A stretch of 64,000 nt of DNA, from contig JBBTXS010000001.1 in assembly GCA_038062115.1 (NCBI GenBank), positions 10,607-74,606 on the forward strand. The letters are read 5' to 3'. Made by a program: the position numbers and the translations under genes. This DNA comes from Patescibacteria group bacterium. Its GTDB lineage: Bacteria > Patescibacteriota > Microgenomatia > Levybacterales > UBA12049. The notes beneath the pieces were generated by a model. It was not told where the DNA came from and made no database searches. It saw only the letters and a list, made by a program, of their open reading frames with translations. Positions 2,051 to 20,692 of the stretch are shown in pieces. Positions within the stretch are counted from its first letter, which is position 1. Each line of letters opens with the position of its first letter.

Positions 2051-2060
2051 TCAAATTATT

Positions 2061-2085: not shown

Positions 2086-2159
2086 GTTATTCACTTTGCT
2101 GAGTCTGCTTCTTGACTGATTGGTTGTTTTGTGATTAGCTTAAATAGGGTCAGCAATTT

Positions 2160-3101: not shown

Positions 3102-3114
3102 GAAGGGTGTTTTT

Positions 3115-5571
3115 ATGAAAGAAAAGCCCCAATTTACTCAAAAACTCTATAGAATTCAGGGAATGCACTGCGCTTCCTGTGCTGTTTTAATTAACACAGT
3201 TCTACAAAAACAAAAAGGAGTAGAGTCTGTAAATGCAAGTTTTGGAGCTGAAAAACTTTCTATTTCATTTGATCCAAATGTTATACCCGAGGAAAAAGTA
3301 TTGGGTTTTGGTAAATCTTTGGGATACTCTTTTGTGTCGGAGGAGTCAAGAACTGAGGATGAATTTAAAAAAGAAAGGGATGCTCATATCAGAGAGCTTA
3401 GAAATAGAACTATTGTAAGTTTTCTTCTTTCAAGCCCTATTATTGCATATTATATGGCAGTTCACATGTTTAATCTTAAGCATGTCCACGCAATAATGGT
3501 TGGAAGTTTATTTATAGATTTAAACTGGATTTATTTACTAATGACAATTCCAGTTCAATTTTGGGTGGGATGGATTTTTTATAGAAGCGCCTGGACGGCA
3601 TTTAAGGTTGGTTCAACCTCGATGGACACGCTTGTAGTTTTGGGAACGAGTGCTGCATTTTTTTATAGTCTTATTGGCTTTCTGTTTTCAACTACCTATG
3701 GAAAGCTACAAACACTCTGGATAGGACTTGATCATCCTTTTTGGGAGTCATCTGCTGCTTTAATGTCGTTTTTAATTATGGGCCGCTTCCTTGAAGCTGT
3801 GTCTCGTGGAAAAGTTTCTGAGGCAGTAAGTAAATTGTTGCAGCTTGCACCAGAAAAAGCAATTTTACTTAAAAACGGTGAGGAAAAAGAAATTCTGGCG
3901 AGCGACTTAAAAAAAGACGATATATTTATTGTTAAGCCTGGAAGTAAAATTCCAACAGATGGAATAATTATTAAAGGCGAATCGGCATTGGACGAAAAAA
4001 TAGTAACAGGAGAATCAATGCCAGTCAATAAAAAAGTAAACGACGAAGTAATTGGGGGTACAGTAAATTCGTATGGATTGCTTCACTGTAAAGCAACTAA
4101 AGTTGGAAGCGAGACTTTACTACACCAAATAGTTAGAATGGTTCGCGAGGCTCAAGCAACAAGAGCACCGCTTCAACGCGTTGCAGACTGGATATCCGAA
4201 CGATTTGTGCCAACAGTTATAGTTTTAAGCCTTATCTCCTTTAACTATTGGTATTTTATAAAAGCAGACGGTTTTACTCCATCGCTTCTTTTTATGGTTG
4301 CAGCACTTATTATTTCTTGTCCATGTGCTTTGGGATTAGCAACTCCTATTGCTACTATGGTTGGTACAGCAAAAGGCGCTGAGTCTGGAATATTAATTAA
4401 AGGCGGAGAGGCTTTAGAAAAAGCGCATAAGATTACAGCGGTTGCGTTCGATAAGACAGGAACTTTAACAAAGGGAGAACCAGCTGTGACAGACGTCATT
4501 GCAATTAATTCCTCTGTCATTGCGAGGAGCGAAGCGACGAAGCAATCTCACGAGATTGCCACGGGTTCTTCGAGCCCTCGCAATGACATATTGAGGCTTG
4601 CTGCAGTTGCCGAGAGAGGTTCGGAACACCCCCTCGCTCAAGCTGTAGTTAAAAAAGCAAAAGAACTAAATTTAGAAGTTCCGGAGCCTGAAAACTTTAA
4701 AACAATTTCAGGGATGGGAGTTTCATCAGACTATAAAGGGAAACAAATTATGGTTGGGAATCAGCTTTTTATGGAGAAAGAAAGCATCAATATAAACGAG
4801 ATTGCTTCTGAGGTAAATAGACTTAGAGCTGAGGCAAAAACTGTGGTCTATGTTGCGTATGATAAAAAAGTTATTGGATGTGTTGCCCTTGCCGATACGC
4901 TCAAGAAACATTCTATTGCTGCGATAAATGCTCTAAAGAAGAGAAAAAAAGAAATAATTATGATTACTGGCGATAACGAACAGACTGCTCATGCAATTGG
5001 AAAGCAGTTGGGAATAGACAAGGTTTATGCCAATGTGTTGCCTGAGAAAAAAGAAGAACTTATTGAGTCTATTAAGAAAGAGGGTAAGGTAGTTGCTTTT
5101 GTTGGGGATGGGATAAATGATTCGCCAGCACTGGCCAAGAGTGACTTGGGTATTGCTGTTGGGTCTGGTACTGATGTTGCAATAGAGACTGGAGAAATAA
5201 TTCTTGTTCGCGATGATCTTCGAGATGTGGTTACAGCGATTGATCTTTCACAAAAGACAATCTATAAAATCTGGCAAAACTTTTTCTGGGCTTTTGTTTA
5301 TAATATAGTTGCGATTCCTATTGCTGCAGGACTGCATCTGGTATTTACTCGACACAGTGGGATTCCGGCGGGCTGGGTAACTTACCTCGGAGATGTTTAT
5401 TCTCTGATTCCAGTTATTGGCAATGAGGTTTCTTCTATTTGGCTAAATTTGTCCCAATCTGCTTTAAGGCCGGAAATCGCCGGATTTGCCATGGCATTTT
5501 CATCAGTCTCGGTTGTCCTCAACTCCCTTCTCCTTCGCCTCTACAAAAAACCAAAATTCGCGGATTCTTGA
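3115..5571 (+). CDS. copA: Copper-translocating P1B-type ATPase
   Basis: The protein carries an N-terminal HMA domain (GMHCASCA), the CPC motif (SCPCALGLATP), DKTGTLT, the HP motif (SEHPLA), TGDN and GDGINDSPAL. An SD-like AAGGG precedes ATG 3115. The ORF-track start at 3097 lies inside the repeat. Confidence 0.95.
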   Translation: MKEKPQFTQKLYRIQGMHCASCAVLINTVLQKQKGVESVNASFGAEKLSISFDPNVIPEEKVLGFGKSLGYSFVSEESRTEDEFKKERDAHIRELRNRTIVSFLLSSPIIAYYMAVHMFNLKHVHAIMVGSLFIDLNWIYLLMTIPVQFWVGWIFYRSAWTAFKVGSTSMDTLVVLGTSAAFFYSLIGFLFSTTYGKLQTLWIGLDHPFWESSAALMSFLIMGRFLEAVSRGKVSEAVSKLLQLAPEKAILLKNGEEKEILASDLKKDDIFIVKPGSKIPTDGIIIKGESALDEKIVTGESMPVNKKVNDEVIGGTVNSYGLLHCKATKVGSETLLHQIVRMVREAQATRAPLQRVADWISERFVPTVIVLSLISFNYWYFIKADGFTPSLLFMVAALIISCPCALGLATPIATMVGTAKGAESGILIKGGEALEKAHKITAVAFDKTGTLTKGEPAVTDVIAINSSVIARSEATKQSHEIATGSSSPRNDILRLAAVAERGSEHPLAQAVVKKAKELNLEVPEPENFKTISGMGVSSDYKGKQIMVGNQLFMEKESININEIASEVNRLRAEAKTVVYVAYDKKVIGCVALADTLKKHSIAAINALKKRKKEIIMITGDNEQTAHAIGKQLGIDKVYANVLPEKKEELIESIKKEGKVVAFVGDGINDSPALAKSDLGIAVGSGTDVAIETGEIILVRDDLRDVVTAIDLSQKTIYKIWQNFFWAFVYNIVAIPIAAGLHLVFTRHSGIPAGWVTYLGDVYSLIPVIGNEVSSIWLNLSQSALRPEIAGFAMAFSSVSVVLNSLLLRLYKKPKFADS
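4516..4587. repeat. GTCAT...ATGAC palindromic MITE-like element inserted in frame in copA
   Basis: The element is 72 nt (24 codons) with perfect 12-bp terminal inverted repeats GTCATTGCGAGG / CCTCGCAATGAC. An internal hairpin is GCAATCTC-AC-GAGATTGC. It encodes VIARSEATKQSHEIATGSSSPRND. Confidence 0.8.
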
Positions 5572-5611
5572 CAACCATGAGTCACGCCGTGTAGGTTAAC
5601 TGTTTTGTAAC

Positions 5612-5986: not shown

Positions 5987-6174
5987 TAATTATGCATCTT
6001 TTAATAGCTCCTAGGTTTTGGGTTCACTATAGAACTAAAATTAATTTTAGTAAACATAATATGAATTATAGATGTTGTGTTTAAATATCAAAAAGGGTTT
6101 CGCGCAGATTTTGCTGGAGCAAAAATTGTGATGTTGTGTAAAGTTCTATATCATTTGAAAGGAATTTAAAAAAT

Positions 6175-6621
6175 ATGAGTAGTGAAAAATTTACATTATT
6201 ACACGCAGCGGTTTACTTTATGCTTATTAAAGATGGCAAAATACTTCTTGTTAGACGTTTTAATACTGGTTGGCAAGATGGAAAATATAGCCTTATCGCA
6301 GGACATCTTGAGAGGAATGAGACAGTTAAACAGGCAATGATAAGAGAAGCAAAAGAAGAAGCAGGAATTAATCTTAACCCAAAGGATTTACATATTGTAC
6401 ATACCATGCATAGGAAGTCTAAGGATGACCTTGAATATATTGATTTTTTCCTAAGTTGCGATACATGGCAAGGGAAGCCTAGGATAACAGAGCATGATAA
6501 ATGTGACGACATGCAATGGTTTTCTCTTAAAAACCTTCCTGAAGATACATTACGACACATAAGAAAAGCAATAGAAAGCTATTCAAATAAGATTTCATTT
6601 TCCGAGTTGGGTTTTGAATAA
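6175..6621 (+). CDS. NUDIX hydrolase
   Basis: The Nudix box is GHLERNETVKQAMIREAKEEAGI (GX5EX7REUXEEXGU). Confidence 0.85.
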   Translation: MSSEKFTLLHAAVYFMLIKDGKILLVRRFNTGWQDGKYSLIAGHLERNETVKQAMIREAKEEAGINLNPKDLHIVHTMHRKSKDDLEYIDFFLSCDTWQGKPRITEHDKCDDMQWFSLKNLPEDTLRHIRKAIESYSNKISFSELGFE

Positions 6622-6626
6622 TTAAT

Positions 6627-7109
6627 ATGCAAAGAAATATAGCTGTAGCGCTTGAGTGTTTTGTTAAAAAGGATGGAAAATACTTAATGCTTCATAGGAG
6701 TAAGAATAAGAAAATAATGCCAGATGTCTGGATGGCGCCTGGAGGAAAGAGAGAATTTAATGAAAGTTTGTTTGAGGCTGCTAGACGAGAGATTAAAGAG
6801 GAGACAGGACTTGAAATTAAAAATCTTCGAATCAAAGCAACGGGTAATGCGTATCTTAAAGATTTAGATCAAGAACTATATTTTCATTTTATAGTTGGTG
6901 ATTACGCTGGGGGAAAGCTCAAACAAAACTCTGAAGACGGAGAATTTATGTGGTTAACGCCTAAAGAAATATCAAAACTTAACAATCTACTTTCGGAAAT
7001 TCGTGAAGTTATGCCTTATATTTTTACTAATGATGACAAGGTCATTTCTTACAAGGCAGTATACGAAAAAGGAAATAAAATGGTCGACTTCCAAATTGAA
7101 AAACCTTAA
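6627..7109 (+). CDS. NUDIX hydrolase (second, tandem)
   Basis: The Nudix box is PGGKREFNESLFEAARREIKEETGL. Confidence 0.85.
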   Translation: MQRNIAVALECFVKKDGKYLMLHRSKNKKIMPDVWMAPGGKREFNESLFEAARREIKEETGLEIKNLRIKATGNAYLKDLDQELYFHFIVGDYAGGKLKQNSEDGEFMWLTPKEISKLNNLLSEIREVMPYIFTNDDKVISYKAVYEKGNKMVDFQIEKP

Positions 7110-7321
7110 AACCTGAGTCGTGAAATCTTCTCAAACACACTTGCCTTTATATGTTTCATAAATGTCAATTGCGACAACAGCCATACGCAACCTATTCCTA
7201 ATCCGAGGGTTATCGTTTGTAAAACATTTTGGAAAAAGTAACAGTTATTCATGGTTCTAAAACAGATATTAGCAATCTTTAAATAGTTTATCAAGTATCA
7301 ATTTTTTTTATTTTTTGAGGG

Positions 7322-7354
7322 TTGACAAAGAGGATAAAAGAGTTCTACTATAAT
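7322..7354 (+). promoter_or_regulatory. Sigma70-like promoter candidate for copZ operon
   Basis: TTGACA lies at 7322-7327. The -10 candidates are TACTAT (7346-7351, 18-nt spacer) and TATAAT (7349-7354, 21-nt spacer). A T-rich tract lies upstream. The ATG at 7363 has no SD, so the transcript may be leaderless. Confidence 0.4.
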
Positions 7355-7362
7355 TATGTAAG

Positions 7363-7584
7363 ATGCCAATAATTACAAAAAAAGCTCTTAATATAGAAGG
7401 CATGCATTGCAATTCCTGCGCATCGGGGATTCAGCTGGTTTTGCAAAACACAGACGGCGTTTTGAATGCAACTGCCAGTTATGATTCCAAAAAAGGCGAA
7501 GTTGAGTTTGACGAGGAAAAAACGAATTTGGAGAACATTGTTAAGTCAATCGAGCAACTGGGATATAAGGCGACGCCGCAGTAA
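7363..7584 (+). CDS. copZ: Heavy-metal-associated (HMA) copper chaperone
   Basis: A 73-aa protein with the GMHCNSCA metal-binding motif and ferredoxin-like HMA length. Confidence 0.85.
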   Translation: MPIITKKALNIEGMHCNSCASGIQLVLQNTDGVLNATASYDSKKGEVEFDEEKTNLENIVKSIEQLGYKATPQ

Positions 7585-7593
7585 ATGCGCGTT

Positions 7594-7669
7594 GTCATGC
7601 TGAATTTATTTCAGCATCTTGAAATAAGTAAAGGACTGCATCTAGACTCTGAAACAAGTTCAGGGTGAC
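7594..7669. repeat. GTCAT...GTGAC palindromic MITE-like element
   Basis: The termini are GTCATGCTGAA (left) and TTCAGGGTGAC (right), matching 9 of 11 as inverted repeats. Hairpins are ATGCTGAA-TTTA-TTCAGCAT and CTGAA-ACAAG-TTCAG. It is intergenic. Confidence 0.65.
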
Positions 7670-7685
7670 ACAAAGAGGATAAGTT

Positions 7686-8000
7686 ATGAAGTCTTTATTA
7701 AGTTTTTTCTCAACCACTAGTTTGTTGTTATTAACGCTTGCGGAGCCTGCTTTTGCAAATGGAGACAGTCACCCACCAGGAACTCCACACACAGAGGAAG
7801 CAACAAGTATAGATCCCGTAATAGTTGTTGGTATTGCAATAGTTTTGGTAATTGGCGGTTTTATACTTTGGAAATTTGTTCTTCATGGTCCTAAATCATC
7901 TTTACCTAATCAATTATCCTCGTCTGAAAAAACGCCACCTGTTCAGGAAAAAAATGTTTCTCAGAGCAATCTGGGTGATAATCCTCCAAAGAATGGATAG
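7686..8000 (+). CDS. Signal-peptide plus single-TM anchored protein with short His/Pro-rich ectodomain
   Basis: The ORF has a signal-like N-terminus ending AFA-NG, then GDSHPPGTPHTEE, a TM helix and a low-complexity tail. An SD (AGAGGA) lies 7 nt upstream. Confidence 0.5.
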   Translation: MKSLLSFFSTTSLLLLTLAEPAFANGDSHPPGTPHTEEATSIDPVIVVGIAIVLVIGGFILWKFVLHGPKSSLPNQLSSSEKTPPVQEKNVSQSNLGDNPPKNG

Positions 8001-8002
8001 AT

Positions 8003-10072
8003 ATGGATGAGACAACTGCCAATGTCCCTGCGCAAGCTCCTGTAGAGAATAAAGTTCCTGTTGTTCCTGGAAAAAAACATCCACCTTTGTTGTTTCTTAT
8101 TCTGCTTTTCGGTTTAATAGGTATATTTATTTATGGGTTGAGGTTTGTATTTTCTTTAGGTAGCGGGGATGTAGGCTCTGTTCCTTTTCTTCTTTTTGAC
8201 TATACGGTTGGACTTACAATGATTTTTCTTCCCTGCACTCTGCCGCTTGCCTTTGTTATCGTGCCACTTGTGATGGGTAAGTCGTACCAGAAAGGAATTG
8301 GCATGGCTTTGGCATTTGGATTGGGGGTAACTATTACTCTTAGTTTCTATGGGGTGCTTATTGGATTGTTGGGTCAGGCGCTTGGAATCCACCAAGTTGA
8401 GACTGCAAAAAATATTTTGTATGCGGTAGCAGGTCTATTTGCAATTCTTTTTGCTCTGGGAGAGCTTAAGCTTATTCGTTTTGCAGCTCCTGTTTATGGG
8501 GGTGCTGTTCCACAATTTATCATGAAACAAAAAGATATTGCAAAAGCGTTATTTCTTGGTCTTTTTTTGGGAAATGTAGGAGTAGGCTGTCCGAATCCTC
8601 TTTTTAACGCAGTAATTATTCCTCAGATCATTGCTACAGGCGATGCTTTCCAAGGGTGGCTCATTATGTTTGTGCAGGCGCTTGGACGTATCACTCCACT
8701 TTTTATCCTTGCGTTTCTTGCAATTTTGGGGATCAATGCGACTCGATTTCTTGTTCTTCACAAAGATGCGGTTAGTAGGATTACAGCTTGGTCTACAATT
8801 TATATTGGTGGATTTTTGCTTACCCTTGGACTTTTTGGACACGATTGGTGGGTCATCTCGGGAATGCATACTTTTGTAGAGTTTGTGACTCAAGAAAACT
8901 TTGTCACAAATCTTCTTGGGAGCAAGGTCCAAGAACTTGGACATACTCACGGGATTCCAACTGGAGCAGGATTATTCGGCATGCCTATTGCTTTGGGAAC
9001 CCCATTTATCCTTTTTATCTGGATCTTTCCAATGGTTTGGTACTATCTGTTCAAAAAAAAGAGCATCATTACACTTCCTCCCGAGCAGCAAGCGTTTGAG
9101 AAAAGATATACACGTCTTATTGGCTGGTTTTTTGTAGTCGTGTCGCTTTGGCTCATAACGGTTTTTGGATATTTTCTTCCCCATATGTTTGCAGATCATT
9201 GGTCCAAAATGGGGCATGAGGGGGAGGAAATAGATCATATGATGAAAGAGAAGACAGTAGAAAAGCAAGATTTTCATGCAACACTTTCAAGCACTCCATC
9301 GGCAATTCAAGCTGCTAAACCATTTACACTTAAGGTTGTTCTGCATGATAAACGCGGCAGACCAGTTAACGATTTACAGATATCTCATGAAAGAATTTTG
9401 CACGTAATTTTGGTAAGCGAAGACATGGAAGAGTTTAAGCATGTTCATCCAGAAGATGCAAAAAATTATGTAGCAAAAACTGGACAGACTGAATTTGAAA
9501 TTCCTATAACTCTTTCAAAAGCCGGGCGTTACAGAGTTCTGGTTGATGGATCTAGAAAAGGAGTAGGGGAGGTATCCGATCTTGGGTGGCTTGAGGTTGG
9601 AATTGTCGGAGATAGCGTGGGAGAACCAGTTCTTATAAAGAAAGATCGTCGTCTAAATCGAATATTTGGAGAATATGATGTTTCACTAGTGCCGACTCCT
9701 CACAATGCTCTTAGATCAGGAGAGAAAACACAATTAAGCTATTTTATTAGAGATAGAGAAACTGGCAACCCAATCTTTGATATAGAACAATATCTTGGCG
9801 CTGACATGCATCTTGCGATTATGTCTATTGATTTATCTACTATTCTTCATACTCATGGAGCAAGATGGGAGCCAAAGTTGGGGCCAAATCAAGGTGTCGC
9901 GTTTCCAGAGATCCGAGCAAACTACACTTTTCCCTATCCAGGGCTTTGGAAAATCTACGGACAATTCCAGCATAAAGGCAAAGTTGTGACGACTGAGTTT
10001 ATGGTGGAGGTTGCGCCGGGCATAATGGATGCTCAAAACATGGCTCCGCATATGGATGACAATGGGCATTAG
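8003..10072 (+). CDS. Fusion protein: CcdA/DsbD-like thiol-disulfide transporter core plus two tandem His-motif beta-sandwich-like domains
   Basis: The CcdA-like signatures are FLPCTLPL and GVGCPNPLF in TM helices. The C-terminal ~270 aa contain two repeats of the pattern HxxLxS.D...F.H.H (ILHVILVSEDMEEFKHVHPED and MHLAIMSIDLSTILHTHG). Confidence 0.6.
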   Translation: MDETTANVPAQAPVENKVPVVPGKKHPPLLFLILLFGLIGIFIYGLRFVFSLGSGDVGSVPFLLFDYTVGLTMIFLPCTLPLAFVIVPLVMGKSYQKGIGMALAFGLGVTITLSFYGVLIGLLGQALGIHQVETAKNILYAVAGLFAILFALGELKLIRFAAPVYGGAVPQFIMKQKDIAKALFLGLFLGNVGVGCPNPLFNAVIIPQIIATGDAFQGWLIMFVQALGRITPLFILAFLAILGINATRFLVLHKDAVSRITAWSTIYIGGFLLTLGLFGHDWWVISGMHTFVEFVTQENFVTNLLGSKVQELGHTHGIPTGAGLFGMPIALGTPFILFIWIFPMVWYYLFKKKSIITLPPEQQAFEKRYTRLIGWFFVVVSLWLITVFGYFLPHMFADHWSKMGHEGEEIDHMMKEKTVEKQDFHATLSSTPSAIQAAKPFTLKVVLHDKRGRPVNDLQISHERILHVILVSEDMEEFKHVHPEDAKNYVAKTGQTEFEIPITLSKAGRYRVLVDGSRKGVGEVSDLGWLEVGIVGDSVGEPVLIKKDRRLNRIFGEYDVSLVPTPHNALRSGEKTQLSYFIRDRETGNPIFDIEQYLGADMHLAIMSIDLSTILHTHGARWEPKLGPNQGVAFPEIRANYTFPYPGLWKIYGQFQHKGKVVTTEFMVEVAPGIMDAQNMAPHMDDNGH

Positions 10073-10090
10073 TAACGTACCTTACGCACT

Positions 10091-10188
10091 GTCATCCCGA
10101 GCGAAGCCAGGTACCGTCTGGCACCTGGCGAAGCGAGGGATCTCCCGCAACTAGGGTGAGAGAGATTTCTCGACAAGCTCGAAATGAC
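10091..10188. repeat. GTCAT...ATGAC palindromic MITE-like element
   Basis: The element is 98 nt, running GTCATCCCGAGCGAAGC ... CTCGAAATGAC, with an internal stem CCAGGT/ACCTGG. It is GC-rich and intergenic. Confidence 0.65.
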
Positions 10189-10219
10189 AAAGGTTGCGTA
10201 ACATGAGTTAGTAATTATG

Positions 10220-10305
10220 TTATTCTTCGAGCGAGGCTGAAAGCCGAGTCGAGAAGTTCTACCTTCAAGATAGTTCTCGACTCACTTCGTTCGCTCGAAC
10301 AATAA
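10220..10305. repeat. Second-type palindromic MITE-like element
   Basis: The ~17-nt near-perfect terminal inverted repeats are TTATTCTTCGAGCGAGG and (as reverse complement) TTATTGTTCGAGCGAAC. An internal 10-bp stem pairs GAGTCGAGAA (10246-10255) with TTCTCGACTC (10274-10283). Confidence 0.65.
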
Positions 10306-10312
10306 AACTTAT

Positions 10313-10579
10313 ATGGGTAAGAATATTACTATTCAGCTTGTATCCACTCCAGGTTGTACTCATTGCGAGGAGGTACGAAAAGTACTGCATGAAGTGAAAT
10401 CGCAGTATCCGCAAATGCAGATACAAGAACTCGATGCAACAAATCCGGACGGATTAGAACTTGTCGCCAAGCATGGTATTTTGGCAAGCCCTGGAGTTAT
10501 CATTAACGGAGAGCTTTTCGCAACAGGAGGGCTTAATAAAGACAGTTTTATTAAAAAATTAGCCTCTCTAAAAAATTAA
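10313..10579 (+). CDS. Small thioredoxin/glutaredoxin-like protein (CxxC)
   Basis: An 88-aa protein with a PGCTHCEE active-site-like motif near the N-terminus, in the size class of single-domain thioredoxin-fold proteins. Confidence 0.7.
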   Translation: MGKNITIQLVSTPGCTHCEEVRKVLHEVKSQYPQMQIQELDATNPDGLELVAKHGILASPGVIINGELFATGGLNKDSFIKKLASLKN

Positions 10580-10603
10580 CCGCTCATTTCTCCGCAGGTG
10601 TAG

Positions 10604-10645
10604 CTACAAATCCACCCCAAGGGTGGACCGTCCCAAGTGGGGACG
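10604..10645. repeat. 25-nt repeat (copy 2 of 2) plus an adjacent second hairpin
   Basis: 10604-10628 is identical to 2061-2085. Hairpin 1 is at 10611-10627. Hairpin 2 is CGTCCC-AAGTG-GGGACG at 10629-10645. Confidence 0.7.
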
Positions 10646-10677
10646 TTCGTACGACAGAGTTTGTATTTGTATATGGC

Positions 10678-11712
10678 TTGTTTGAGGAGTATAATAAACT
10701 TATGGCAATTCTGCTGGGGCTAACACTTCTTTCTTGTTTTATTACTGCTATTCTTATTATTCCCTTTATAGACTTTTTATACAAAATACGGCTTAGACGT
10801 CAAAAGCAAAAGACAGTTGATATGTTTAATAAGCCAACACCAGTGTTTGATAAGCACAATAACTGGAAAGTTGGTACACCTTTTGGTGGAGGAATACTTA
10901 TTGTAAGCGTTGTATCCATATTAACTCTTTGGGCTTATGGAATATTAAGCATAGATGTTAAAATATGGCAGGTATTTGTAATTTTGTTTACATTTGTGGG
11001 CTTTGGGCTTTTAGGTCTTTACGATGATGCAAAGAAGTTAGTCAATGGAAAAAAATCTTCGTTTTTTGGCTTAAGATTTAGGCACAAATTTATACTTCAG
11101 TGGATTTTGGCATTTATTGTAGCAATTATTTTATATACACAGCTTGGATACGATTTTGTGTTTATCCGTGGATTTGGCTTAGCCGACCTTGGGTTTTTAT
11201 TTGTTCCATTCGCAACGTTCGTAATTGTTGCTTTTGCTAACGCCTTTAATATTGCAGATGGACTAGATGGATTAGCATCAGGACTACTTTTAATTTGCCT
11301 GGTTGCATTTTTGGTGATTACCGCAAACCAATTAGATCAGCCCCTTGGCATTTTTATAGCTATTCTTATGGGAAGTATTTCTGCTTTCTTGTATTTCAAC
11401 ATTTACAAGGCAAGAATTTGGCTTGGTGACGTTGGAGCACTTTCTCTTGGGGCGGTTTTAGGGTTAATAGGGCTTTTGACTGGTAAAACTGTTGCCCTTG
11501 CATTTATTGGAGGTGTGTTTGTGTTGGAAGTTGCTTCGTCCTTAATTCAGATTTGCTCCAAGAAATTTTTAGGCAAAAAGGTATTTCCGGCTTCTCCTTT
11601 GCACTTGCTTTTGCTGCGTATTGGTTGGGATGAGCCAAAAATAGTAATGAGAGCGTGGATACTTGGTTTTTTATTTGCAGTTTTAGGACTTTACATAGCC
11701 TTCATCAGATAA
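10678..11712 (+). CDS. mraY: Phospho-N-acetylmuramoyl-pentapeptide transferase
   Basis: The NAFNIADGLDGLA motif, a polytopic profile and dcw context support the call. 10678 is a TTG codon. ATG 10702, with GAGGAG upstream, is the more likely start. Confidence 0.9.
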   Translation: MFEEYNKLMAILLGLTLLSCFITAILIIPFIDFLYKIRLRRQKQKTVDMFNKPTPVFDKHNNWKVGTPFGGGILIVSVVSILTLWAYGILSIDVKIWQVFVILFTFVGFGLLGLYDDAKKLVNGKKSSFFGLRFRHKFILQWILAFIVAIILYTQLGYDFVFIRGFGLADLGFLFVPFATFVIVAFANAFNIADGLDGLASGLLLICLVAFLVITANQLDQPLGIFIAILMGSISAFLYFNIYKARIWLGDVGALSLGAVLGLIGLLTGKTVALAFIGGVFVLEVASSLIQICSKKFLGKKVFPASPLHLLLLRIGWDEPKIVMRAWILGFLFAVLGLYIAFIR

Positions 11713-11737
11713 TAAACCCTTCATAACTCAAAACAGT

Positions 11738-12805
11738 ATGAAAAAAGTAGATTTTATTCTTTTAGCAACAGTTGTTTTTCTAACTCTTTTTGGGTTTTTC
11801 ATGATATACGATGCTTCTTCGTATGTTGCCTTTCGCGATTTTTCCGATAAATATCATTACGTTAAAGATCAATTTGTTTGGGTAGTGCTTGGTTTTACAG
11901 GACTGATTTTCTTTTCTTATTTTAATTACCATAGGCTTTATAACCTTTCTTTGCCTCTACTTTTTATAGCCATAGTTTTGTTAGTTTTAGTATTTGTTCC
12001 GGGAATTGGTGTCTATTTGTTAGGCGCACGTCGTTGGGTGGACTTTAAAATATTTTTATTGCAGCCCGCGGAGTTTGTAAAATTGGCTCTTGCTATCTAT
12101 CTTTCTGCTTGGTTTGCCAACAAAGAGAAAGGAAGGCTCATGGCATTTCTCATGCTTCTAGGCTTAGTCCTTTTTTTAATAGTTATTCAGCCTGATATGG
12201 GAACTGCTGTTGTTATACTTTGTGAAGCCATGTTAATATATTTTTTGTCGGGCGGTAATGTATTATATTTTGCAATTTTAATGCCGATAATATCAATACT
12301 TGGGATGTTTTTAATTAAACTATCGCCCTATAGAGCAAAAAGGCTTGAAGCATTTTTGAATGTCAATCAATCTATAGAGAGTAGCTCCTATCATGTTAAA
12401 CAGATACTAATTGCATTAGGATCCGGAGGAATTACAGGGGTCGGGCTTGGGAACAGTTTGCAAAAATACGCTTACCTTCCCGAAACGACAACTGATTCAA
12501 TATTTGCCATTATTGCGGAGGAACTTGGTTTTGTAGGCGCAACCTGCATTATAATTTTGTTTATTATAATAGTCTGGAGGGGTTTTAATATAGCAAGTCT
12601 TGCAAAAGATGACTTTGGCAAGCTTTTGGCAACAGGCATCACAACGTTTTTAGCAGTCCAAACAATTATTAATTTAGGAGCTCTTGTCTCTCTTTTCCCC
12701 CTAACTGGAATTCCTCTTCCTTTTATTTCGTACGGAGGATCAGCTCTTATTATTGACCTTTGTTCTATTGGGATACTTTTGAATATTTCTAAGAATAGTT
12801 CATAG
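11738..12805 (+). CDS. ftsW: SEDS-family cell-division peptidoglycan polymerase
   Basis: The protein shows SEDS hallmarks (QPAEFVKLAL, PDMGTA, LPETTTDSIFA, PLPFISYGGS) and lies between mraY and murG. Confidence 0.85.
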   Translation: MKKVDFILLATVVFLTLFGFFMIYDASSYVAFRDFSDKYHYVKDQFVWVVLGFTGLIFFSYFNYHRLYNLSLPLLFIAIVLLVLVFVPGIGVYLLGARRWVDFKIFLLQPAEFVKLALAIYLSAWFANKEKGRLMAFLMLLGLVLFLIVIQPDMGTAVVILCEAMLIYFLSGGNVLYFAILMPIISILGMFLIKLSPYRAKRLEAFLNVNQSIESSSYHVKQILIALGSGGITGVGLGNSLQKYAYLPETTTDSIFAIIAEELGFVGATCIIILFIIIVWRGFNIASLAKDDFGKLLATGITTFLAVQTIINLGALVSLFPLTGIPLPFISYGGSALIIDLCSIGILLNISKNSS

Positions 12806-12812
12806 AGTTTAT

Positions 12813-12892
12813 GTCATTGCGAGCGTGAGCGAAGCAATCCCCTTCTTTTTGAGATTGCTTCGTCTCAGGCTTCGCCTGATCCTCGCAATGAC
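12813..12892. repeat. GTCAT...ATGAC palindromic MITE-like element
   Basis: The element is 80 nt with 11-bp perfect terminal inverted repeats GTCATTGCGAG / CTCGCAATGAC. It lies in the ftsW-murG spacer and is read through by the GTG-initiated ORF-track extension. Confidence 0.75.
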
Positions 12893-12914
12893 AATAGAAC
12901 AGTTTAGAGTTTAT

Positions 12915-14069
12915 ATGAAAATAGTAATTGTTGGTGGTCATTTGGCTCCAGCGTTAGCGGCAATAGACAATTTACCTAAAGATACAAAACTTCTGTTTAT
13001 TGGAAGAAAATATACTTTTGAAGGAGACAAAGCTTTGTCTTTGGAGTATAGAGAGATTACTAAACGCAAGGTCCCGTTTACAAATGTCATAAGCGGAAGG
13101 CTTCAGAGAAGGCTCACTCGCCATACAATCCCTTCACTTATAAAAGTTCCATATGGATTCATTCAGTCTTTTTTTATCTTGCAAAAGTTTAAGCCAGATG
13201 TGTTTTTAGGTTTTGGTGGGTATTTATCTTTACCTCTTGGTTTAGCAGCTTTTATTTTAAGAATCCCGATTGTTATTCACGAGCAAACATTAGAAGCAGG
13301 TATTGCGAATAAGATTCTTTCGTTTTTTGCTAAAAAGATCTGTATTTCATGGGAATCATCAAGAAAATTTTTTCCAAAAAATAAAACTGTTCTTATTGGA
13401 AACCCGATACGAAAATTTTCTCTGTCATCCCGACCAAGCCCGAAGGGCGCGTGGAGGAATCTCGGAGATTCCTCGACTCCGTTTCACTTCGCTCGGAATG
13501 ACACCCCTATTATTTACATCACTGGTGGGAGTTCTGGCTCGCACTTTATAAATACACTGGTTGAGGGCTGTATCAAAGAGCTATTGGAAAAGTTCGTCAT
13601 TATTCACCAAACAGGAGATGCGCAAGAATACCGTGACTTTGACCGACTTAACAATCTTAGAGATAGTCTACCATCAAAATTAAAAGCAAGATACTTTCTG
13701 ATAAAATTTGTTGAACCGAAAGACGTTGGATCATGTTTACAAAAAGCGCATTTAGTAGTTTCACGCGCTGGTATAAATACTATAACAGAGCTTATTTTTT
13801 TAAAAAAGCCATCTTTGTTGATTCCTCTGCGTTATTCCCAAAATAACGAACAAATAAAGAATGCCCTTTTTTTAAAAAGCCTAGGGCTTGGGGAAGTTTT
13901 GGAACAAGGCCATTTAAGCTCGCAAAAGTTTTTGCAAAAAGTAATAGAGATGGTTAATAATATAAATAAGTATAAGATTAAAGATAAATCTAATGCTTTA
14001 ATCAATAAAAATGCTGCCCAAAAGATAATTGAAGTCATTCAATATGCTACAAAGAGCAAGAAAAACTAA
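12915..14069 (+). CDS. murG: UDP-GlcNAc:lipid I N-acetylglucosaminyltransferase
   Basis: MKIVIVGGHLAP, HEQT, GNPIR and TGGSSGS motifs of the GT28 MurG fold, plus dcw position, support the call. The start moves to ATG 12915 because the 12825 extension is repeat-encoded. Confidence 0.9.
   Translation: MKIVIVGGHLAPALAAIDNLPKDTKLLFIGRKYTFEGDKALSLEYREITKRKVPFTNVISGRLQRRLTRHTIPSLIKVPYGFIQSFFILQKFKPDVFLGFGGYLSLPLGLAAFILRIPIVIHEQTLEAGIANKILSFFAKKICISWESSRKFFPKNKTVLIGNPIRKFSLSSRPSPKGAWRNLGDSSTPFHFARNDTPIIYITGGSSGSHFINTLVEGCIKELLEKFVIIHQTGDAQEYRDFDRLNNLRDSLPSKLKARYFLIKFVEPKDVGSCLQKAHLVVSRAGINTITELIFLKKPSLLIPLRYSQNNEQIKNALFLKSLGLGEVLEQGHLSSQKFLQKVIEMVNNINKYKIKDKSNALINKNAAQKIIEVIQYATKSKKN
13424..13502. 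repeat. GTCAT...ATGAC palindromic MITE-like element embedded in frame in murG
   Basis: The element runs GTCATCCCGACC ... CTCGGAATGAC with an internal 10-bp palindrome GAGGAATCTC/GAGATTCCTC. It encodes roughly SSRPSPKGAWRNLGDSSTPFHFARND in the interdomain linker. Confidence 0.7.
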
Positions 14070-17863: not shown

Positions 17864-20692
17864 ATGTTCAAACCAGTTTCCCCAAAAGTTGATTTCCCAA
17901 AGCTTGAAGAGGAGATTTTAAAGTTCTGGAAAAAAAACAAAATTTTTGAAAAGTCTCTCAAGAAAGAATCACCAAAAGGCGACTGGACATTTTTGGACGG
18001 TCCGCCATTTATAACTGGTCTTCCTCATTACGGAAGCCTTCTCTCAAGTATCCCCAAAGATGTTTTTCCACGATTTAAAACAATGCAAGGGTATAGGGTT
18101 CGCCGTGTTTGGGGGTGGGACTGCCATGGTCTGCCTGCAGAAAATAAAGTGGAAGAGAAGCTTAAAATTCAAAGAAAGAAAGATATAGAAGAGAAAATTG
18201 GTGTTAAGCGCTTCATTGATGAGTGTAAACTGTATGTCTCACAAGTTTCTTTAGAATGGGAGTGGTATGTGGATCATATTGGTAGGTGGGTGGATTTAAA
18301 AAATGCCTACAGAACCATGGATATTGCTTATATGGAAAGCGTTTTGTGGGTGTTTAGAAACATGTATGATAAAGGGCTAATTTATAGGGGACTTCGCGTT
18401 TCACTTTATTGTCCTCATTGTGCAACGCCAATCTCTAATTTTGAAGTCGCGATGGATGTGGATAACTATAAAGAAGTTTTGGACTCGGCAACTACCTATA
18501 AATATCAATTAAAAGACGAAAAGAACACTTATGTTCTCGCGTGGTCGACAACTCCATGGAATAAAATTGTTACGCCCGCTTTGGCTGTTAACCCAAAACT
18601 AACTTATATAAAAATTGCTCAAGGCAAGGAAAAATATATTTTAGCTAAATCAACTGCAAAAATGATTGTTGGTGAATACAAAATAGAGGATGAATTTAAA
18701 GGCGAAAAATTAGTAGGAAAAAAATTTGTTCCTCATTATGACTACTATTCAGTTTTAAAAGGAGAGAAAGCGTTTGAAATTATAGGAGGAGATTTTGTAA
18801 CAGATGAGGAGGGGACGGGGGTTGTGACAATCGCTTCCTATGGGGAAGAAGATTTAAAGGTAATGGTTTCTCAAAACATACATATAGAAATGCACCTAGA
18901 TGGGGAAGGAATCATAAAAAAAGATGTGCCTCTTTTTGGCGGGATGTATTATCTTAAAGCCAATAAAGCTGTAAATGAAGATTTAAGAAAACGGCGTCTT
19001 ATTTATAAGGATCAAGAACTTCCGCATAGCGTCCCTCTTTGCTGGAGGTGTTCAACAAGACTTTATTATGCTCCTCAGGACGCTTGGTATGTAAATGTCC
19101 AAAAATTAAAAGACAAAATGAAAAAAACAAACGATCTTGTCAATTGGTTTCCCTCTCATTTTAAGCATGGAAGATTTTTAAAAAGTTTGGAAAGTGCTCC
19201 TGATTGGAATATTTCAAGAAGCAGATACTGGGGATCGCCGGTTCCAGTGTGGGAATGCGAATGCAATGAGCGGTTTGTTCCGGGATCGATTAAAGAGCTT
19301 GAGAAACGATCAGGAAGCAAAATTACTGATTTACACAAACCAGAAATAGATAAAGTTACGATAATATGCGACAAGTGCGGTAAGAGCGCTCATCGCGTTT
19401 CGGAAGTTTTGGATAGCTGGATTGAGGCGGGAAGCGCTTCATTTGGGGAACGCCATTATCCTTTTGATCCGCCAGCCGGCGGACAAAATATAAAAGATTT
19501 TTACCCTCCGGATTTTATAGGTGAGTATACTGGTCAAATACGAGCGTGGTTTTATGTGCTTCATGTAATCGCTAATGCATTAAATCTTCGAGATGACGGC
19601 CTAAATGTGCTATCAAAAAATGTTTTAGTTGAAGGAATAATTTTAGGGACAGATGGTAGGAAGATGAGCAAAAATTATGGTAATTATCCAGATCCAAGAG
19701 AAATGCTTGGAAAATATGGAGGAGATGCGTTACGTCTCTATTTGCTTTCTTCACCTGTTATGAATGGTGAAGATATTTTAATTTCGGAAGAGCAATACAG
19801 AAATCAAGTTAAAGGCATGATGTTAATTTTATGGAATGTTTACAATTTTTTTGTAACATATTCTAATCTTGTAAATTGGAATTGTGATTTAAAAACAGGA
19901 GAGTTGACCGTGTTAGACAGATGGATACTTGCAAGACTTACGCAGTTGGTTATAGAGACAAACGAAAATTTAGAAAAATATAATACTATAGCGGCTACAA
20001 GAGCAATTGAAAATTTTGTTATTAATGATTTTTCGACTTGGTATATTAGGCGATCACGAAATCGAGTAGGTTTTAGTGCTGACAAAAAAGACAGAGACAC
20101 GGCGTTATCAGTAATGTATGGGGTTTTAGTAGCTTTGAGTAAGCTAATAGCTCCAATTACTCCTTTTATTGCTGAGGAGATATTTCGGAACCTAACTCAG
20201 GAAGAATCAGTACATCTACAAGACTTTCCAAAAGGAGATAGAAGTTTACTAAATAAAGAATTAATAAAAGATATGGATTTAGTTAGGAAAATTGTAGAAC
20301 TTGGTCATGCATTTAGAAAAGAGAAAAATATAAAGGTTAGACAACCGCTTTCTAAATTTTCAATTTTCAATTTTCAATTTTCAATCGATAGAGAATTGGT
20401 TGACTTAATAAAAGACGAACTAAATGTTAAGGAAGTCTCATTTATAAAGGGGAAAGGAGAATTAAGAGTTGAGTTCGATACTTTTCTAACTCAAGAGTTA
20501 AAAGATGAAGGATTGGCACGGGATATTGTTAGGCAAATCCAGGATGCACGAAAAAAGACTAGGACGAGATTCGATGAATGGGTAAATGTTATTTTTCCAG
20601 ACTGGCCTTATGAATTCGAAGAATACATAAAACAGAGGGCCTTAGTTAAAAAACTAGAAAAAGGAAATAAGTTTTTGGTTGCACCCGCATGA
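17864..20692 (+). CDS. ileS: Isoleucyl-tRNA synthetase (type 2 / eukaryote-like form)
   Basis: DGPPFITGLPHYGS (the HIGH region), GWDCHGLPAE and KMSKNYGNYPDP (KMSKS) match the class Ia IleRS pattern rather than ValRS. Confidence 0.9.
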   Translation: MFKPVSPKVDFPKLEEEILKFWKKNKIFEKSLKKESPKGDWTFLDGPPFITGLPHYGSLLSSIPKDVFPRFKTMQGYRVRRVWGWDCHGLPAENKVEEKLKIQRKKDIEEKIGVKRFIDECKLYVSQVSLEWEWYVDHIGRWVDLKNAYRTMDIAYMESVLWVFRNMYDKGLIYRGLRVSLYCPHCATPISNFEVAMDVDNYKEVLDSATTYKYQLKDEKNTYVLAWSTTPWNKIVTPALAVNPKLTYIKIAQGKEKYILAKSTAKMIVGEYKIEDEFKGEKLVGKKFVPHYDYYSVLKGEKAFEIIGGDFVTDEEGTGVVTIASYGEEDLKVMVSQNIHIEMHLDGEGIIKKDVPLFGGMYYLKANKAVNEDLRKRRLIYKDQELPHSVPLCWRCSTRLYYAPQDAWYVNVQKLKDKMKKTNDLVNWFPSHFKHGRFLKSLESAPDWNISRSRYWGSPVPVWECECNERFVPGSIKELEKRSGSKITDLHKPEIDKVTIICDKCGKSAHRVSEVLDSWIEAGSASFGERHYPFDPPAGGQNIKDFYPPDFIGEYTGQIRAWFYVLHVIANALNLRDDGLNVLSKNVLVEGIILGTDGRKMSKNYGNYPDPREMLGKYGGDALRLYLLSSPVMNGEDILISEEQYRNQVKGMMLILWNVYNFFVTYSNLVNWNCDLKTGELTVLDRWILARLTQLVIETNENLEKYNTIAATRAIENFVINDFSTWYIRRSRNRVGFSADKKDRDTALSVMYGVLVALSKLIAPITPFIAEEIFRNLTQEESVHLQDFPKGDRSLLNKELIKDMDLVRKIVELGHAFRKEKNIKVRQPLSKFSIFNFQFSIDRELVDLIKDELNVKEVSFIKGKGELRVEFDTFLTQELKDEGLARDIVRQIQDARKKTRTRFDEWVNVIFPDWPYEFEEYIKQRALVKKLEKGNKFLVAPA
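20357..20384. repeat. Heptanucleotide tandem repeat (TTTTCAA)x4 inside ileS
   Basis: Four perfect 7-nt units read directly from the sequence. They encode FSIFNFQFSI. Confidence 0.9.

What the first reader, a model, noticed from the sequence alone, without database searches (positions are those of the whole stretch)
13424..13502. Second in-frame palindromic element, in the interdomain linker of the essential gene murG
GTCATCCCGACC...CTCGGAATGAC, with an internal 10-bp palindrome, is translated as about SSRPSPKGAWRNLGDSSTPFHFARND. It lies between the GNPIR motif, which ends the N-domain, and IYITGGSSGS, which starts the C-domain.

It is read in a different codon phase from the copA copy. The family is therefore open in multiple frames. 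A sister copy (12813-12892) sits only 22 nt upstream of the murG start.

Two independent in-frame copies within 9 kb argue for tolerated coding insertions as a genuine property of this repeat family.
Basis: partly seen in the sequence, partly recalled or inferred. Interest (0 to 1): 0.65.

Follow-up and report, generated by a model that had tools for sequence, protein, structure and literature searches.

The report
Translated palindromic repeat inside murG
A 79-base copy of a dispersed, hairpin-forming DNA repeat sits inside the cell-wall gene murG of a Levybacteria (CPR) genome and is translated as a floppy loop between the enzyme's two halves; this repeats a pattern long known from Rickettsia, here at a linker that related bacteria have had hit repeatedly.

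Summary
Window 13424-13502 is a 79-nt GC-rich palindrome (GTCATCCCGA...TCGGAATGAC) inside an intact murG (12915-14069). It is read through as residues 170-196, between GNPIR and IYITGGSSGS.

It belongs to a dispersed repeat family. The window holds four clear copies and one variant. Further copies lie in a Methylosinus plasmid and in viral contigs.

An AlphaFold model places the insert in a disordered loop at the hinge between the two domains. Most MurG orthologues have a 16-20 aa linker there instead. In the closest relatives that linker is encoded by a tandem heptanucleotide array.

Four other Levybacteria carry an element at exactly the same junctions and phase. All five cores have a length of 1 modulo 3. 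The carriers are not a clade, and murG is visibly mosaic.

A sixth relative (L089) has an independent in-frame insertion with a 7-bp target duplication. Two further orthologues carry inserts of another repeat family.

Best reading: this is a Rickettsia-palindromic-element-like selfish repeat. It survived because it landed stop-free in a permissive linker, and it now supplies most of that linker. The kind is known; this is a new member in a new lineage. The heptamer arrays in coding regions remain unexplained.

The parts
13424..13502 (+). 79-nt GC-rich palindromic repeat (core only, no outer arms, no target duplication), translated as MurG residues 170-196
   Evidence: It is homologous to the copies at the same junctions in L002, L086 and L087, and is of the same family as the L088 copy.
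12915..14069 (+). murG CDS (384 aa), intact, GT28 N and C domains
   Evidence: all 67 invariant columns kept; best fold matches are solved MurG structures
13413..13423 (+). AAATTTTCTCT: the remnant (about 1.5 units) of the heptanucleotide array that encodes this linker in related Levybacteria
   Evidence: L093 AAAATTTTCAATTTTCAATTTTCAATTTTCA; L017 (CAATTTT)x4. That it is a remnant is inferred from position and sequence.
12813..12892 (+). Sister copy (80 nt, GTCATTGCGAGC...CCTCGCAATGAC) in the ftsW-murG spacer, 22 nt before the murG ATG. It is flanked by roughly 20-nt direct repeats (AATAGTTCATAGAGTTTAT / AATAGAACAGTTTAGAGTTTAT).
   Evidence: z = -6.5; L089 has a 116-nt version at the same place
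4516..4587 (+). 72-nt copy translated in frame (VIARSEATKQSHEIATGSSSPRND) in a copA-type P-type ATPase. It lies between DKTGTLT...VTD and LRLAA..SEHP, near the start of the nucleotide-binding domain.
   Evidence: L002 has a 60-nt copy of another subfamily at the same right junction and phase.
10069..10214 (+). Complete composite element in the dsbD-like/thioredoxin spacer: 7-bp direct repeat TTAGTAA (10069-10075), outer arm CGTACCTTACGCACT, 98-nt GTCAT core (10091-10188), outer arm AAAGGTTGCGTAACATGAG, then TTAGTAA again (10208-10214)
   Evidence: (z = -4.7). L002 3227-3391 has the same geometry with TAATTAA.
10220..10305 (+). 86-nt palindrome with different termini (TTATTCTTCGAGCGA...TCGCTCGAACAATAA); a probable diverged relative whose membership is uncertain
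   Evidence: I25; z = -5.3

Best explanation
The feature is a copy of a non-autonomous, hairpin-forming dispersed repeat. The family has the termini (T)GTCAT-yss-GAG...CTC-ssr-ATGAC(A), and each arm is itself a small hairpin. The copy became fixed inside murG and is translated as part of the protein. It works as nothing more than a tolerated, now structurally required, spacer.

Shown: it is transcribed and translated with murG. It cannot be skipped, because removing its 79 nt would shift the frame.

Shown by prediction only: the 26 residues it encodes form a disordered surface loop at the hinge between the two Rossmann-like domains of this GT-B enzyme.

Inferred: it replaced most of the native 16-20 aa linker, so the protein now depends on it for linker length.

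Inferred: it survives in a presumably essential gene because of selection on where and how it landed. It is stop-free in the used frame, it restores the frame, and it sits in a linker whose length and sequence are unconstrained across the phylum.

Shown: later indels inside the element kept the frame. The five cores at this site are 79, 100, 76, 76 and 79 nt, all 1 modulo 3.

Inferred: the filled allele arose once or a few times. It was then passed among co-occurring Levybacteria lineages by the same homologous recombination that made murG mosaic. Its interior was kept close to the family consensus, or replaced, by gene conversion from other genomic copies.

Shown for other copies only: the family does transpose, leaving 7-bp target duplications. 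The transposase is unknown.
For: Family membership rests on several results.
- The terminal pattern occurs 3 times against 0 in shuffles, and further copies are in the window and related loci.
- The left arm AAGCCCGAAGGGCGCGTGGAGG recurs in an unrelated intergenic locus (L090) and in a DnaX gene (L092).
- An 80-nt copy lies in a Methylosinus trichosporium plasmid; its first 32 nt are identical to the copA copy.
- 39 viral contigs match the arm pattern.

Hairpin architecture:
- The copies fold far better than shuffles, z = -4.7 to -6.5.
- The variable triplet covaries with an internal pentamer in each arm: 32/37 and 33/37 elements, against 1.5 expected.

Transposition: 7-bp direct repeats sit at identical geometry around window 10069-10214 and L002 3227-3391. 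In the L089 murG linker they are TAGATAA, 186 nt apart, which is 62 codons.

In-frame and tolerated:
- The ORF is intact with all invariant MurG residues.
- The AF2 model has mean pLDDT 84 and pTM 0.80. Residues 169-191 fall below pLDDT 50, and no secondary structure is predicted for 161-198.
- The fold matches solved MurG structures.

Insertion rather than native sequence: 71 relatives have linkers mostly 16-20 aa long and of unrelated sequence. The closest relatives encode theirs with heptamer arrays.

Shared allele: the junctions and phase are identical in the window, L002, L086, L087 and L088. All core lengths are 1 modulo 3.

Spread by recombination:
- Carriers never form a clade (0/100 bootstraps). 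Carrier plus non-carrier pairs are supported at 91%.
- murG is a mosaic: window/L086 are 90-92% identical in one N-domain block, window/L089 97-98% in a C-domain block, window/L004 98% at the 3' end, against roughly 70% elsewhere.

No signal was found for another role: no Rfam family, no promoter-like or terminator-like site at the element, and no phage match.
Against: The murG copy has no target-site duplication and no outer arms. Its own insertion by transposition is therefore inferred from family membership, not shown.

The window and L002 elements are 77/79 identical, while the flanking 150 nt are only 77-79% identical. The bases immediately adjacent also differ. The chance of 77/79 at a background of 78% is 8e-7. 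Simple vertical descent does not explain this, and neither does a recombination tract that extends into the flanks. It requires gene conversion confined to the element, very recent site-specific re-insertion, or selection on the nucleotide sequence.

L088 carries a different subfamily (GTCATTGC...) at the same junctions. The single-origin account must explain that by interior replacement.

Disorder of the loop is a prediction from 32 sequences. There is no expression or protein evidence.
Confidence: 0.75

Rival explanations
1. The hairpin is a functional nucleic-acid element, kept by selection at the nucleotide level. It could be an RNA structure inside the dcw-operon mRNA that sets processing, stability or translational pausing between the two MurG domains. 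It could equally be a DNA site for a protein. On this view the translation is only a by-product.
For: The element is 97% identical between the window and L002, while the flanks are 77-79% identical. Hairpin potential is retained in all five murG-site variants despite different interiors. Copies also occupy the same three other sites in relatives: copA, the dsbD/trx spacer and the ftsW/murG spacer. All four window copies fold better on the minus strand.
Against: The murG copy is the worst folder of the family on the mRNA strand (z = -2.1). RNAalifold gives a positive, unfavourable covariation term on the five copies. The same arm sequence is equally conserved in unrelated intergenic and coding contexts and in other phyla. 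Conservation therefore tracks the family consensus, not the murG context. There is no Rfam, promoter or terminator signal. Most Levybacteria do without it at this site.
Confidence: 0.12
2. The shared junctions reflect independent, site-specific insertions into the same target in each lineage. This would be homing-like behaviour, or cassette replacement at an existing element, rather than one old insertion spread by recombination.
For: Carriers are polyphyletic. Identity is high inside the element and drops at its very edges. A different subfamily sits at identical junctions in L088, and likewise at copA in L002 compared with the window. The family consensus is conserved across loci, as expected of active master copies.
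Against: Every carrier also lacks the same roughly 11 codons of native linker. Independent insertions would have to reproduce that deletion each time. No target duplication is present at these copies, whereas bona fide insertions of the family show 7-bp duplications at varied AT-rich targets: TTAGTAA, TAATTAA and TAGATAA. L086 and L087 share 32/35 nt of the left flank, and three carriers share the otherwise rare FTGNP variant, which points to co-transfer of flank plus element. murG is demonstrably mosaic.
Confidence: 0.2
3. The segment is the native MurG linker of this clade and only resembles a repeat by chance. Alternatively, it is an assembly chimera.
For: The right-end AATGAC overlaps the position where relatives have native AAT GAx / GAT GAx codons (N/D-D/E) before (L)PII.
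Against: The terminal pattern is absent from shuffles. The same arms occur at unrelated loci and in other organisms. Relatives have unrelated linkers. The same protein is on record from two contigs, and the element is in independent assemblies of relatives from JGI, ENA and Logan.
Confidence: 0.02

Closest known systems
Rickettsia palindromic elements (RPEs; Ogata et al. 2000 Science 290:347; Ogata et al. 2002 Genome Res 12:808, as summarised in PMC10969869)
   Same: Both are short, dispersed, hairpin-forming repeats found intergenically and inserted in frame in unrelated housekeeping genes. Both are translated and sit where the protein fold tolerates them. Both show presence/absence among orthologues and have no associated transposase in sight.
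   Different: The lineage differs: CPR/Levybacteria rather than Rickettsiales. The cores are smaller (60-100 nt against about 100-150 nt). The family is not lineage-restricted, since near-identical arms occur in an alphaproteobacterial plasmid and in viral contigs. Sequence relatedness to any RPE family was not tested. Here the copy replaces, rather than merely extends, the native linker, and the same linker is hit repeatedly.
Bacterial MITEs with coding overlap (ERIC/IRU, Correia, QMITE1/QMITE2 of Coxiella; PMC5896051, PMC10969869)
   Same: Both have terminal inverted repeats, small size and multiple copies. Some members show target-site duplications: 7 bp here, and 7-11 nt reported for QMITE2. 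Occasional in-frame fusion with ORFs occurs in both. QMITE2 also has relatives in distant phyla.
   Different: In annotated functional genes, QMITE overlaps are reported at the 3' ends; mid-ORF in-frame cases were reported only in hypothetical proteins (PMC5896051). Here the copies lie in the middle of murG, copA and dnaX. No parent IS is known for this family. The murG and copA copies lack any duplication.
REP/BIME elements mobilised by RAYT (IS200/IS605-like) transposases
   Same: Both have an imperfect-palindrome architecture with G-T-asymmetric stems, which suggests recognition as single-stranded hairpins, and many genomic copies.
   Different: REPs are defined by a GT[AG]G head and are typically 20-40 nt and extragenic. 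This family starts GTCAT. RAYT-type transposition leaves no target duplication, whereas 7-bp duplications are seen here. No RAYT gene was looked for.
Heptanucleotide simple-sequence repeats of prokaryotes (Mrazek et al. 2007 as cited in PMC4679880; TAACTGA repeats of Beggiatoaceae and Cyanobacteria, PMC4679880)
   Same: The native murG linker of related Levybacteria, and a remnant in this window, is a tandem array of 7-nt units. Seven is the commonest unit length of long SSRs in prokaryotes.
   Different: The known heptamer arrays are mainly intergenic, and units that are not multiples of three are expected to be rare in ORFs. Here they lie inside conserved genes at fixed positions, about 31 nt long, with the unit sequence differing between species.

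Membership tests
RPE-like class (in-frame, translated palindromic repeats) | Dispersed multi-copy repeat, not unique to the host gene | tested here: met
RPE-like class (in-frame, translated palindromic repeats) | Palindromic / hairpin-forming | tested here: met
   z = -2.1/-3.3 for the murG copy; -4.7 to -6.5 for the others; covarying arm hairpins
RPE-like class (in-frame, translated palindromic repeats) | Inserted within an ORF without a stop or frameshift; host gene intact | tested here: met
RPE-like class (in-frame, translated palindromic repeats) | Located where the host fold tolerates it (surface loop or linker) | tested here: met
   Prediction only. AF2 pLDDT is below 50 for residues 169-191, between confident domains. 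The position aligns to the segment after GNPVR in solved MurG structures.
RPE-like class (in-frame, translated palindromic repeats) | Orthologues without the insert exist | tested here: met
Rickettsia RPE families proper (RPE-1 to RPE-10) | Sequence homology to a described RPE consensus | not tested
Given the different length and lineage, homology is not assumed.
MITE (strict sense) | Terminal inverted repeats | tested here: met
MITE (strict sense) | Target-site duplication flanking the copy | tested here: not met
   None is present at the murG copy or the copA copy. The feature is met for other members: TTAGTAA at window 10069/10208, TAATTAA in L002, TAGATAA in the L089 murG linker.
MITE (strict sense) | A related autonomous IS with the same ends | not tested
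   No transposase search was made. Only part of the window's ORFs were annotated.
REP / RAYT system | GT[AG]G head tetranucleotide; no target duplication; RAYT gene in the genome | tested here: not met
   The termini are GTCAT, and 7-bp duplications are seen in some members. Presence of a RAYT gene was not tested.
MurG (GT28, GT-B fold) as host gene | GT28 N and C domains, glycine-rich loops, MurG-like fold | tested here: met
Known structured RNA family | Match to an Rfam covariance model | tested here: not met
   (only a chance-level miRNA hit at 10245-10282, E = 0.4)

The most novel reading that the evidence does not exclude
The palindromic elements and the heptanucleotide arrays may be two faces of one process. 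The family inserts with 7-bp target duplications into AT-rich heptamers. Repeated insertion, excision and decay at a few permissive sites (the murG linker, the IleS domain junction, GT-B linkers, the ftsW-murG spacer) would then leave and amplify 7-nt footprints.

If so, transposon traffic continually rewrites interdomain linkers of core genes in Microgenomates. The filled alleles would be exchanged by recombination, or re-targeted site-specifically. That would account for elements being far more conserved than their host gene.
Probability: 0.15. Interest if true: 0.75.

Novelty: new member of a known kind. Interest (0 to 1): 0.45.

Why it matters
[quoted passage not shown] The repeat family involved is not lineage-bound: near-identical arms occur in an alphaproteobacterial plasmid and in viral contigs.

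It gives a clean natural experiment on what a core enzyme tolerates. The GT-B hinge of MurG accepts 11 to more than 70 residues of unrelated sequence.

It matters for annotation of CPR genomes, where such repeats produce spurious ORFs and odd insertions in conserved proteins.

It also shows that small mobile repeats can become load-bearing parts of a gene presumed essential, and that such alleles can move between diverged lineages by recombination.

Tried and rejected
(1) Do full GTCAT elements generally target heptamer arrays? No. The period-7 self-match of 32 flanks is 0.265, against 0.275 for random positions (p = 0.88). The association holds only at the murG and ileS sites and for small GC-rich inserts.

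(2) Is there a target duplication directly at, or symmetric about, the GTCAT cores? None was found for 16 elements. Only copies with outer TTACGCA arms show one.

(3) Is this a programmed frameshift signal, with a slippery heptamer followed by a hairpin? AAAATTTT is not in the X XXY YYZ register of the murG frame, and precise skipping would break the frame. Rejected by inspection.

(4) Is it a promoter, terminator or known RNA? No signal was found.

(5) Is it of phage origin? There was no blastn match in the phage collection, although the arm pattern occurs in 39 IMG/VR contigs.

(6) A protein-database search with the element-encoded peptide failed.

(7) Full-text searches for the element sequence and for MITEs in Patescibacteria found no description of this family.

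(8) Is carrier monophyly supported? No: 0/100 bootstraps. The tree is confounded by mosaicism, so it was not used as a species tree.

(9) The first structure-prediction job failed and was rerun.
Full report
**1. The observation**

Window 13424-13502 reads GTCATCCCGACCAAGCCCGAAGGGCGCGTGGAGGAATCTCGGAGATTCCTCGACTCCGTTTCACTTCGCTCGGAATGAC. It lies inside an ORF whose biologically sensible start is ATG 12915 and whose stop is at 14069, giving 384 aa.

Pfam finds the GT28 N domain (7-143) and the GT28 C domain (199-372). The closest solved relatives by sequence and by fold are MurG structures 7d1i, 1f0k and 3s2u.

The element is read as ...GNPIRKFS-L-SSRPSPKGAWRNLGDSSTPFHFARND-TPIIYITGGSSGSH....

The terminal pattern GTCATNSCGA...TCGSNATGAC occurs three times in the window and never in 100 shuffles.

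The sister copy at 12813-12892 ends 22 nt before the ATG. The copA copy (4516-4587) is read from its first base, whereas the murG copy is read one base out of that register.

The organism is a Candidatus Levybacteria (Microgenomates, CPR) MAG. The same protein is on record from two contigs, one of them in NCBI assembly GCA_964361775.1.

**2. The repeat family**

The window holds four clear copies, plus one palindrome with different termini:
- 4516-4587, in copA
- 10091-10188
- 12813-12892
- 13424-13502, in murG
- 10220-10305, the variant

All of these lie in the first 14 kb. They fold far better than shuffled controls, z = -4.7 to -6.5. The murG copy is the most eroded, at -2.1 on the mRNA strand and -3.3 on the other.

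Across 37 elements collected from all loci, the three variable bases after GTCAT are TGC, CCC, TCC, TCT or CCT. This triplet covaries with a complementary pentamer inside the same arm: 32/37 on one side and 33/37 on the other, against 1.5 expected. Each arm is therefore itself a small hairpin.

The family is not confined to this lineage:
- An 80-nt copy lies in plasmid pOB3b1 of Methylosinus trichosporium OB3b. Its first 32 nt are identical to the copA copy.
- Its arm pattern occurs in 39 IMG/VR contigs.
- The specific left arm of the murG copy recurs in an unrelated intergenic locus (L090).
- The same arm also occurs in the linker of a DnaX gene (L092), between the ATPase lid domain and DnaX_C. 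There it is translated in a different frame, VPIKPEGRVEGS.

I found no Rfam family and no paper that names this repeat.

**3. Evidence that the family transposes**

The 10091 copy sits between outer arms (CGTACC-TTACGCA ... TGCGTAA-CATGAG). These are flanked by the 7-bp direct repeat TTAGTAA at 10069-10075 and 10208-10214. A copy in L002 has the same geometry with TAATTAA.

In L089 the murG linker holds a 145-nt core with arms, between two TAGATAA heptamers that are 186 nt apart, which is 62 codons.

These are target-site duplications. The murG and copA copies of the window have neither arms nor duplication.

**4. Position in the protein**

An AlphaFold2 model built on 32 orthologues has mean pLDDT 84 and pTM 0.80. 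Residues 169-191 fall below pLDDT 50, and no secondary structure is predicted between strands 158-160 and 199-202.

This is the segment that joins the two Rossmann-like domains. It aligns with the stretch after GNPVR in E. coli MurG.

The two other in-frame copies examined lie in comparable places. The copA copy sits between the DKTGTLT phosphorylation motif and the LRLAA..SEHP segment. By general knowledge of P-type ATPases, not by a test made here, that is near the start of the nucleotide-binding domain. The L092 copy sits between two Pfam domains of DnaX.

**5. What orthologues have at this place**

In 71 Levybacteria relatives the linker is mostly 16-20 aa long and unrelated in sequence.

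In the closer relatives it is encoded by a tandem array of 7-nt units:
- (AAATTCG)x4.6
- (CAATTTT)x4
- (AGATTWA)x6
- others of the same design

Some of these arrays have a small GC-rich hairpin in the middle. Seven is the best period in 23 of 71 linkers, and a self-match of 0.6 or more occurs in 6/71 linkers against 0/426 control segments.

The window keeps only AAATTTTCTCT of this array. The element plus eight native residues makes a 34-aa linker. The element therefore replaced about 11 native residues rather than adding to them. This fits its length of 79 nt, which is not a multiple of three.

**6. The same filled site in other lineages**

L002, L086, L087 and L088 carry an element at exactly the same junctions and phase: AAATTTTCnnT|GTCAT...ATGAC|nnnCCTnTTATT.
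- The window and L002 copies share their arms. L002 has 21 more nt in the loop.
- L086 and L087 lack 12 and 11 nt in the two arms and have another loop.
- L088 has a different subfamily, GTCATTGC...GCAATGAC.

All five lengths are 1 modulo 3. Both copA-site elements are 0 modulo 3. Frame-preserving selection has therefore acted on later indels.

The carriers never group together in a MurG tree made without the linker (0/100 bootstraps). Two carriers pair with non-carriers at 91% support.

That tree is not a species tree, because murG is a mosaic. Blocks of 90-98% identity between the window and L086, L089 or L004 alternate with blocks of about 70%.

L086 and L087 also share 32/35 nt of the left flank, and three carriers share a rare FTGNP variant. 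I therefore favour one or a few origins of the filled allele, followed by transfer through homologous recombination.

One fact does not fit simple descent or transfer. The window and L002 elements are 77/79 identical, while the adjoining 150 nt on either side are 77-79% identical and the bases right at the edges differ. The probability of 77/79 at that background is 8e-7.

The arms are equally conserved at unrelated loci. The likeliest cause is therefore homogenisation toward the family consensus by gene conversion. Site-specific re-insertion and nucleotide-level selection remain possible, and both are listed as rivals.

**7. A hot spot**

Besides the five core-only alleles, two further kinds of insert occupy the same linker:
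- L089, and by peptide similarity P0008, have a composite element with a 7-bp duplication elsewhere in the linker.
- P0011 and P0016 carry a different repeat family, HAEFISAS...KQVQxD.

The copA site and the two spacers (dsbD-like/trx and ftsW/murG) are likewise occupied by different family members in the window and in L002 or L089.

**8. Comparison with known systems**

The behaviour is that of Rickettsia palindromic elements, which are dispersed palindromes translated in frame within housekeeping genes (PMC10969869, citing Ogata 2000 and 2002).

It meets the functional criteria of that class. Homology to RPE families was not tested and is not assumed.

It fits the MITE definition only in part. 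It has terminal inverted repeats, but no duplication at this copy, and no parent IS is known. It does not fit REP/RAYT, because the head is GTCAT rather than GT[AG]G and some members have duplications.

The finding is therefore a new member, in a new phylum, of a known kind.

**9. What remains unexplained**

Tandem arrays with a 7-nt unit are the only near-perfect short tandem arrays in 806 kb of Levybacteria DNA: 14 arrays, against 0 for every other period from 4 to 12. The sample is biased toward murG.

In the window such arrays lie inside three ORFs:
- IleS, at the Anticodon_1/DUF5915 junction
- a GT4 glycosyltransferase, in its interdomain linker
- a GT2 enzyme

Many of the 97 IleS orthologues read show the matching 7-aa-periodic peptide at the same spot. 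The nucleotide arrays were confirmed in two loci, and one of them is interrupted by a 25-nt GC-rich insert.

Heptanucleotide SSRs are known to be the commonest long SSR class (PMC4679880, citing Mrazek 2007). Arrays at fixed positions inside core genes are not expected.

The equality between the array period and the 7-bp duplication length of the repeat family is suggestive. It is untested, and full elements are not generally flanked by period-7 sequence.

Noticed in passing
window 20355-20385; 27263-27296; 30979-31009: Perfect or near-perfect tandem heptanucleotide arrays lie inside ORFs. (AATTTTC)x4.4 is in IleS at the Anticodon_1/DUF5915 junction (peptide KFSIFNFQFSI). (AAGTATT)x4.9 is in the interdomain linker of a GT4 glycosyltransferase. 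(AATCTCA)x4.4 is inside a GT2 domain. In 806 kb of Levybacteria loci, period 7 gives 14 arrays and periods 4-6 and 8-12 give none.
   Followed up: partly
L006-L085 murG linkers (e.g. L006 1638-1676, L017 4498-4531, L033 4508-4540, L093 6748-6779): In many Levybacteria the native MurG interdomain linker is encoded by a heptanucleotide array whose unit differs between species. Several arrays have a small GC-rich hairpin in the middle, for example TCCGCCAGCTGGCGGA in both L029 and L044.
   Followed up: partly
IleS orthologues P0121-P0240; L135 490-603; L136 776-865: In many of the 97 IleS orthologues read, the segment after IKVRQPL is a 7-aa-periodic peptide (KFSIFNFQFSI, ELRIMNYELRI, RAKCKGQRAKL...). 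More distant orthologues have ordinary sequence there. The nucleotide arrays were confirmed in two loci. L135 has (AAGTTCA)x3, then a 25-nt GC-rich insert, then more array.
   Followed up: partly
window 621-726: A different GC-rich palindromic cluster (CACCTCCGAGGAG / CACCTCGGAGGTG / CTCCTCCGAGGTG, fold z = -4.5) supplies the last ~25-33 residues and the stop of the NTP-transferase ORF 6-701. The Pfam domain ends at residue 198 of 231.
   Followed up: partly
window 12700-14069 compared with L004, L086, L089: murG and the end of ftsW are mosaics. They are near-identical to L004 at the ftsW 3' end and the murG 3' end, 90-92% identical to L086 in part of the N domain, and 97-98% identical to L089 in part of the C domain. 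Elsewhere identity is about 70%. This means frequent homologous recombination between diverged Levybacteria lineages.
   Followed up: partly
window 1-14000 versus 14001-64000: All palindromic GC-rich elements of the window lie in the first 14 kb, and none in the remaining 50 kb. The first 20 kb is also richer in G+C: 0.34-0.41, against 0.26-0.36 over most of the rest.
   Followed up: no
window 10069-10214; L002 3227-3391: Two intergenic copies are composite. The GTCAT core sits between outer arms ending TTACGCA / TGCGTAA, and the whole is flanked by 7-bp direct repeats (TTAGTAA; TAATTAA) at identical geometry. This is the only clear target-site duplication seen for the family.
   Followed up: partly
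L089 6526-6740 (murG linker of a close relative): An independent in-frame insertion lies in the same linker: a 145-nt GTCATTCTGG...CCAGCATGAC core with arms, between two TAGATAA heptamers 186 nt (62 codons) apart. P0008 has a related peptide.
   Followed up: partly
P0011, P0016 (MurG orthologues); L002 ftsW-murG spacer; L084 2835-2901: A second, unrelated palindromic repeat family (GTCATGCTGAATTTAT...; peptides HAEFISAS...KQVQxD / MLKQVQHD) also occurs in frame in the MurG linker of some orthologues and in spacers.
   Followed up: no
L134 1501-1580 (Methylosinus trichosporium OB3b plasmid pOB3b1); L095-L133 (IMG/VR contigs): The same repeat family occurs outside the CPR. An 80-nt intergenic copy in an alphaproteobacterial plasmid has 32 nt identical to the window's copA copy. 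Copies also occur in GC-rich viral contigs, where a 99-nt copy lies in long ORFs in at least four contigs (L103, L108, L116, L120). Two of these (L103, L116) have identical ORF flanks.
   Followed up: partly
window 12794-12914; L089 5870-6020: The ftsW-murG spacer copy is flanked by a roughly 20-nt imperfect direct repeat (AATAGTTCATAGAGTTTAT / AATAGAACAGTTTAGAGTTTAT). L089 has the same copy enlarged to 116 nt by an extra internal hairpin. In L086 the same spacer instead holds inverted heptamer arrays, (AGTTAAA)x7.6 then (AATTTTG)x7.7.
   Followed up: no
window 4516-4587, 10091-10188, 12813-12892, 13424-13502: All four copies fold 3-6 kcal/mol better on the minus strand than on the gene strand (G-T versus C-A mismatches). 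This hints at a strand-specific single-stranded form. With only four copies it is not significant.
   Followed up: no
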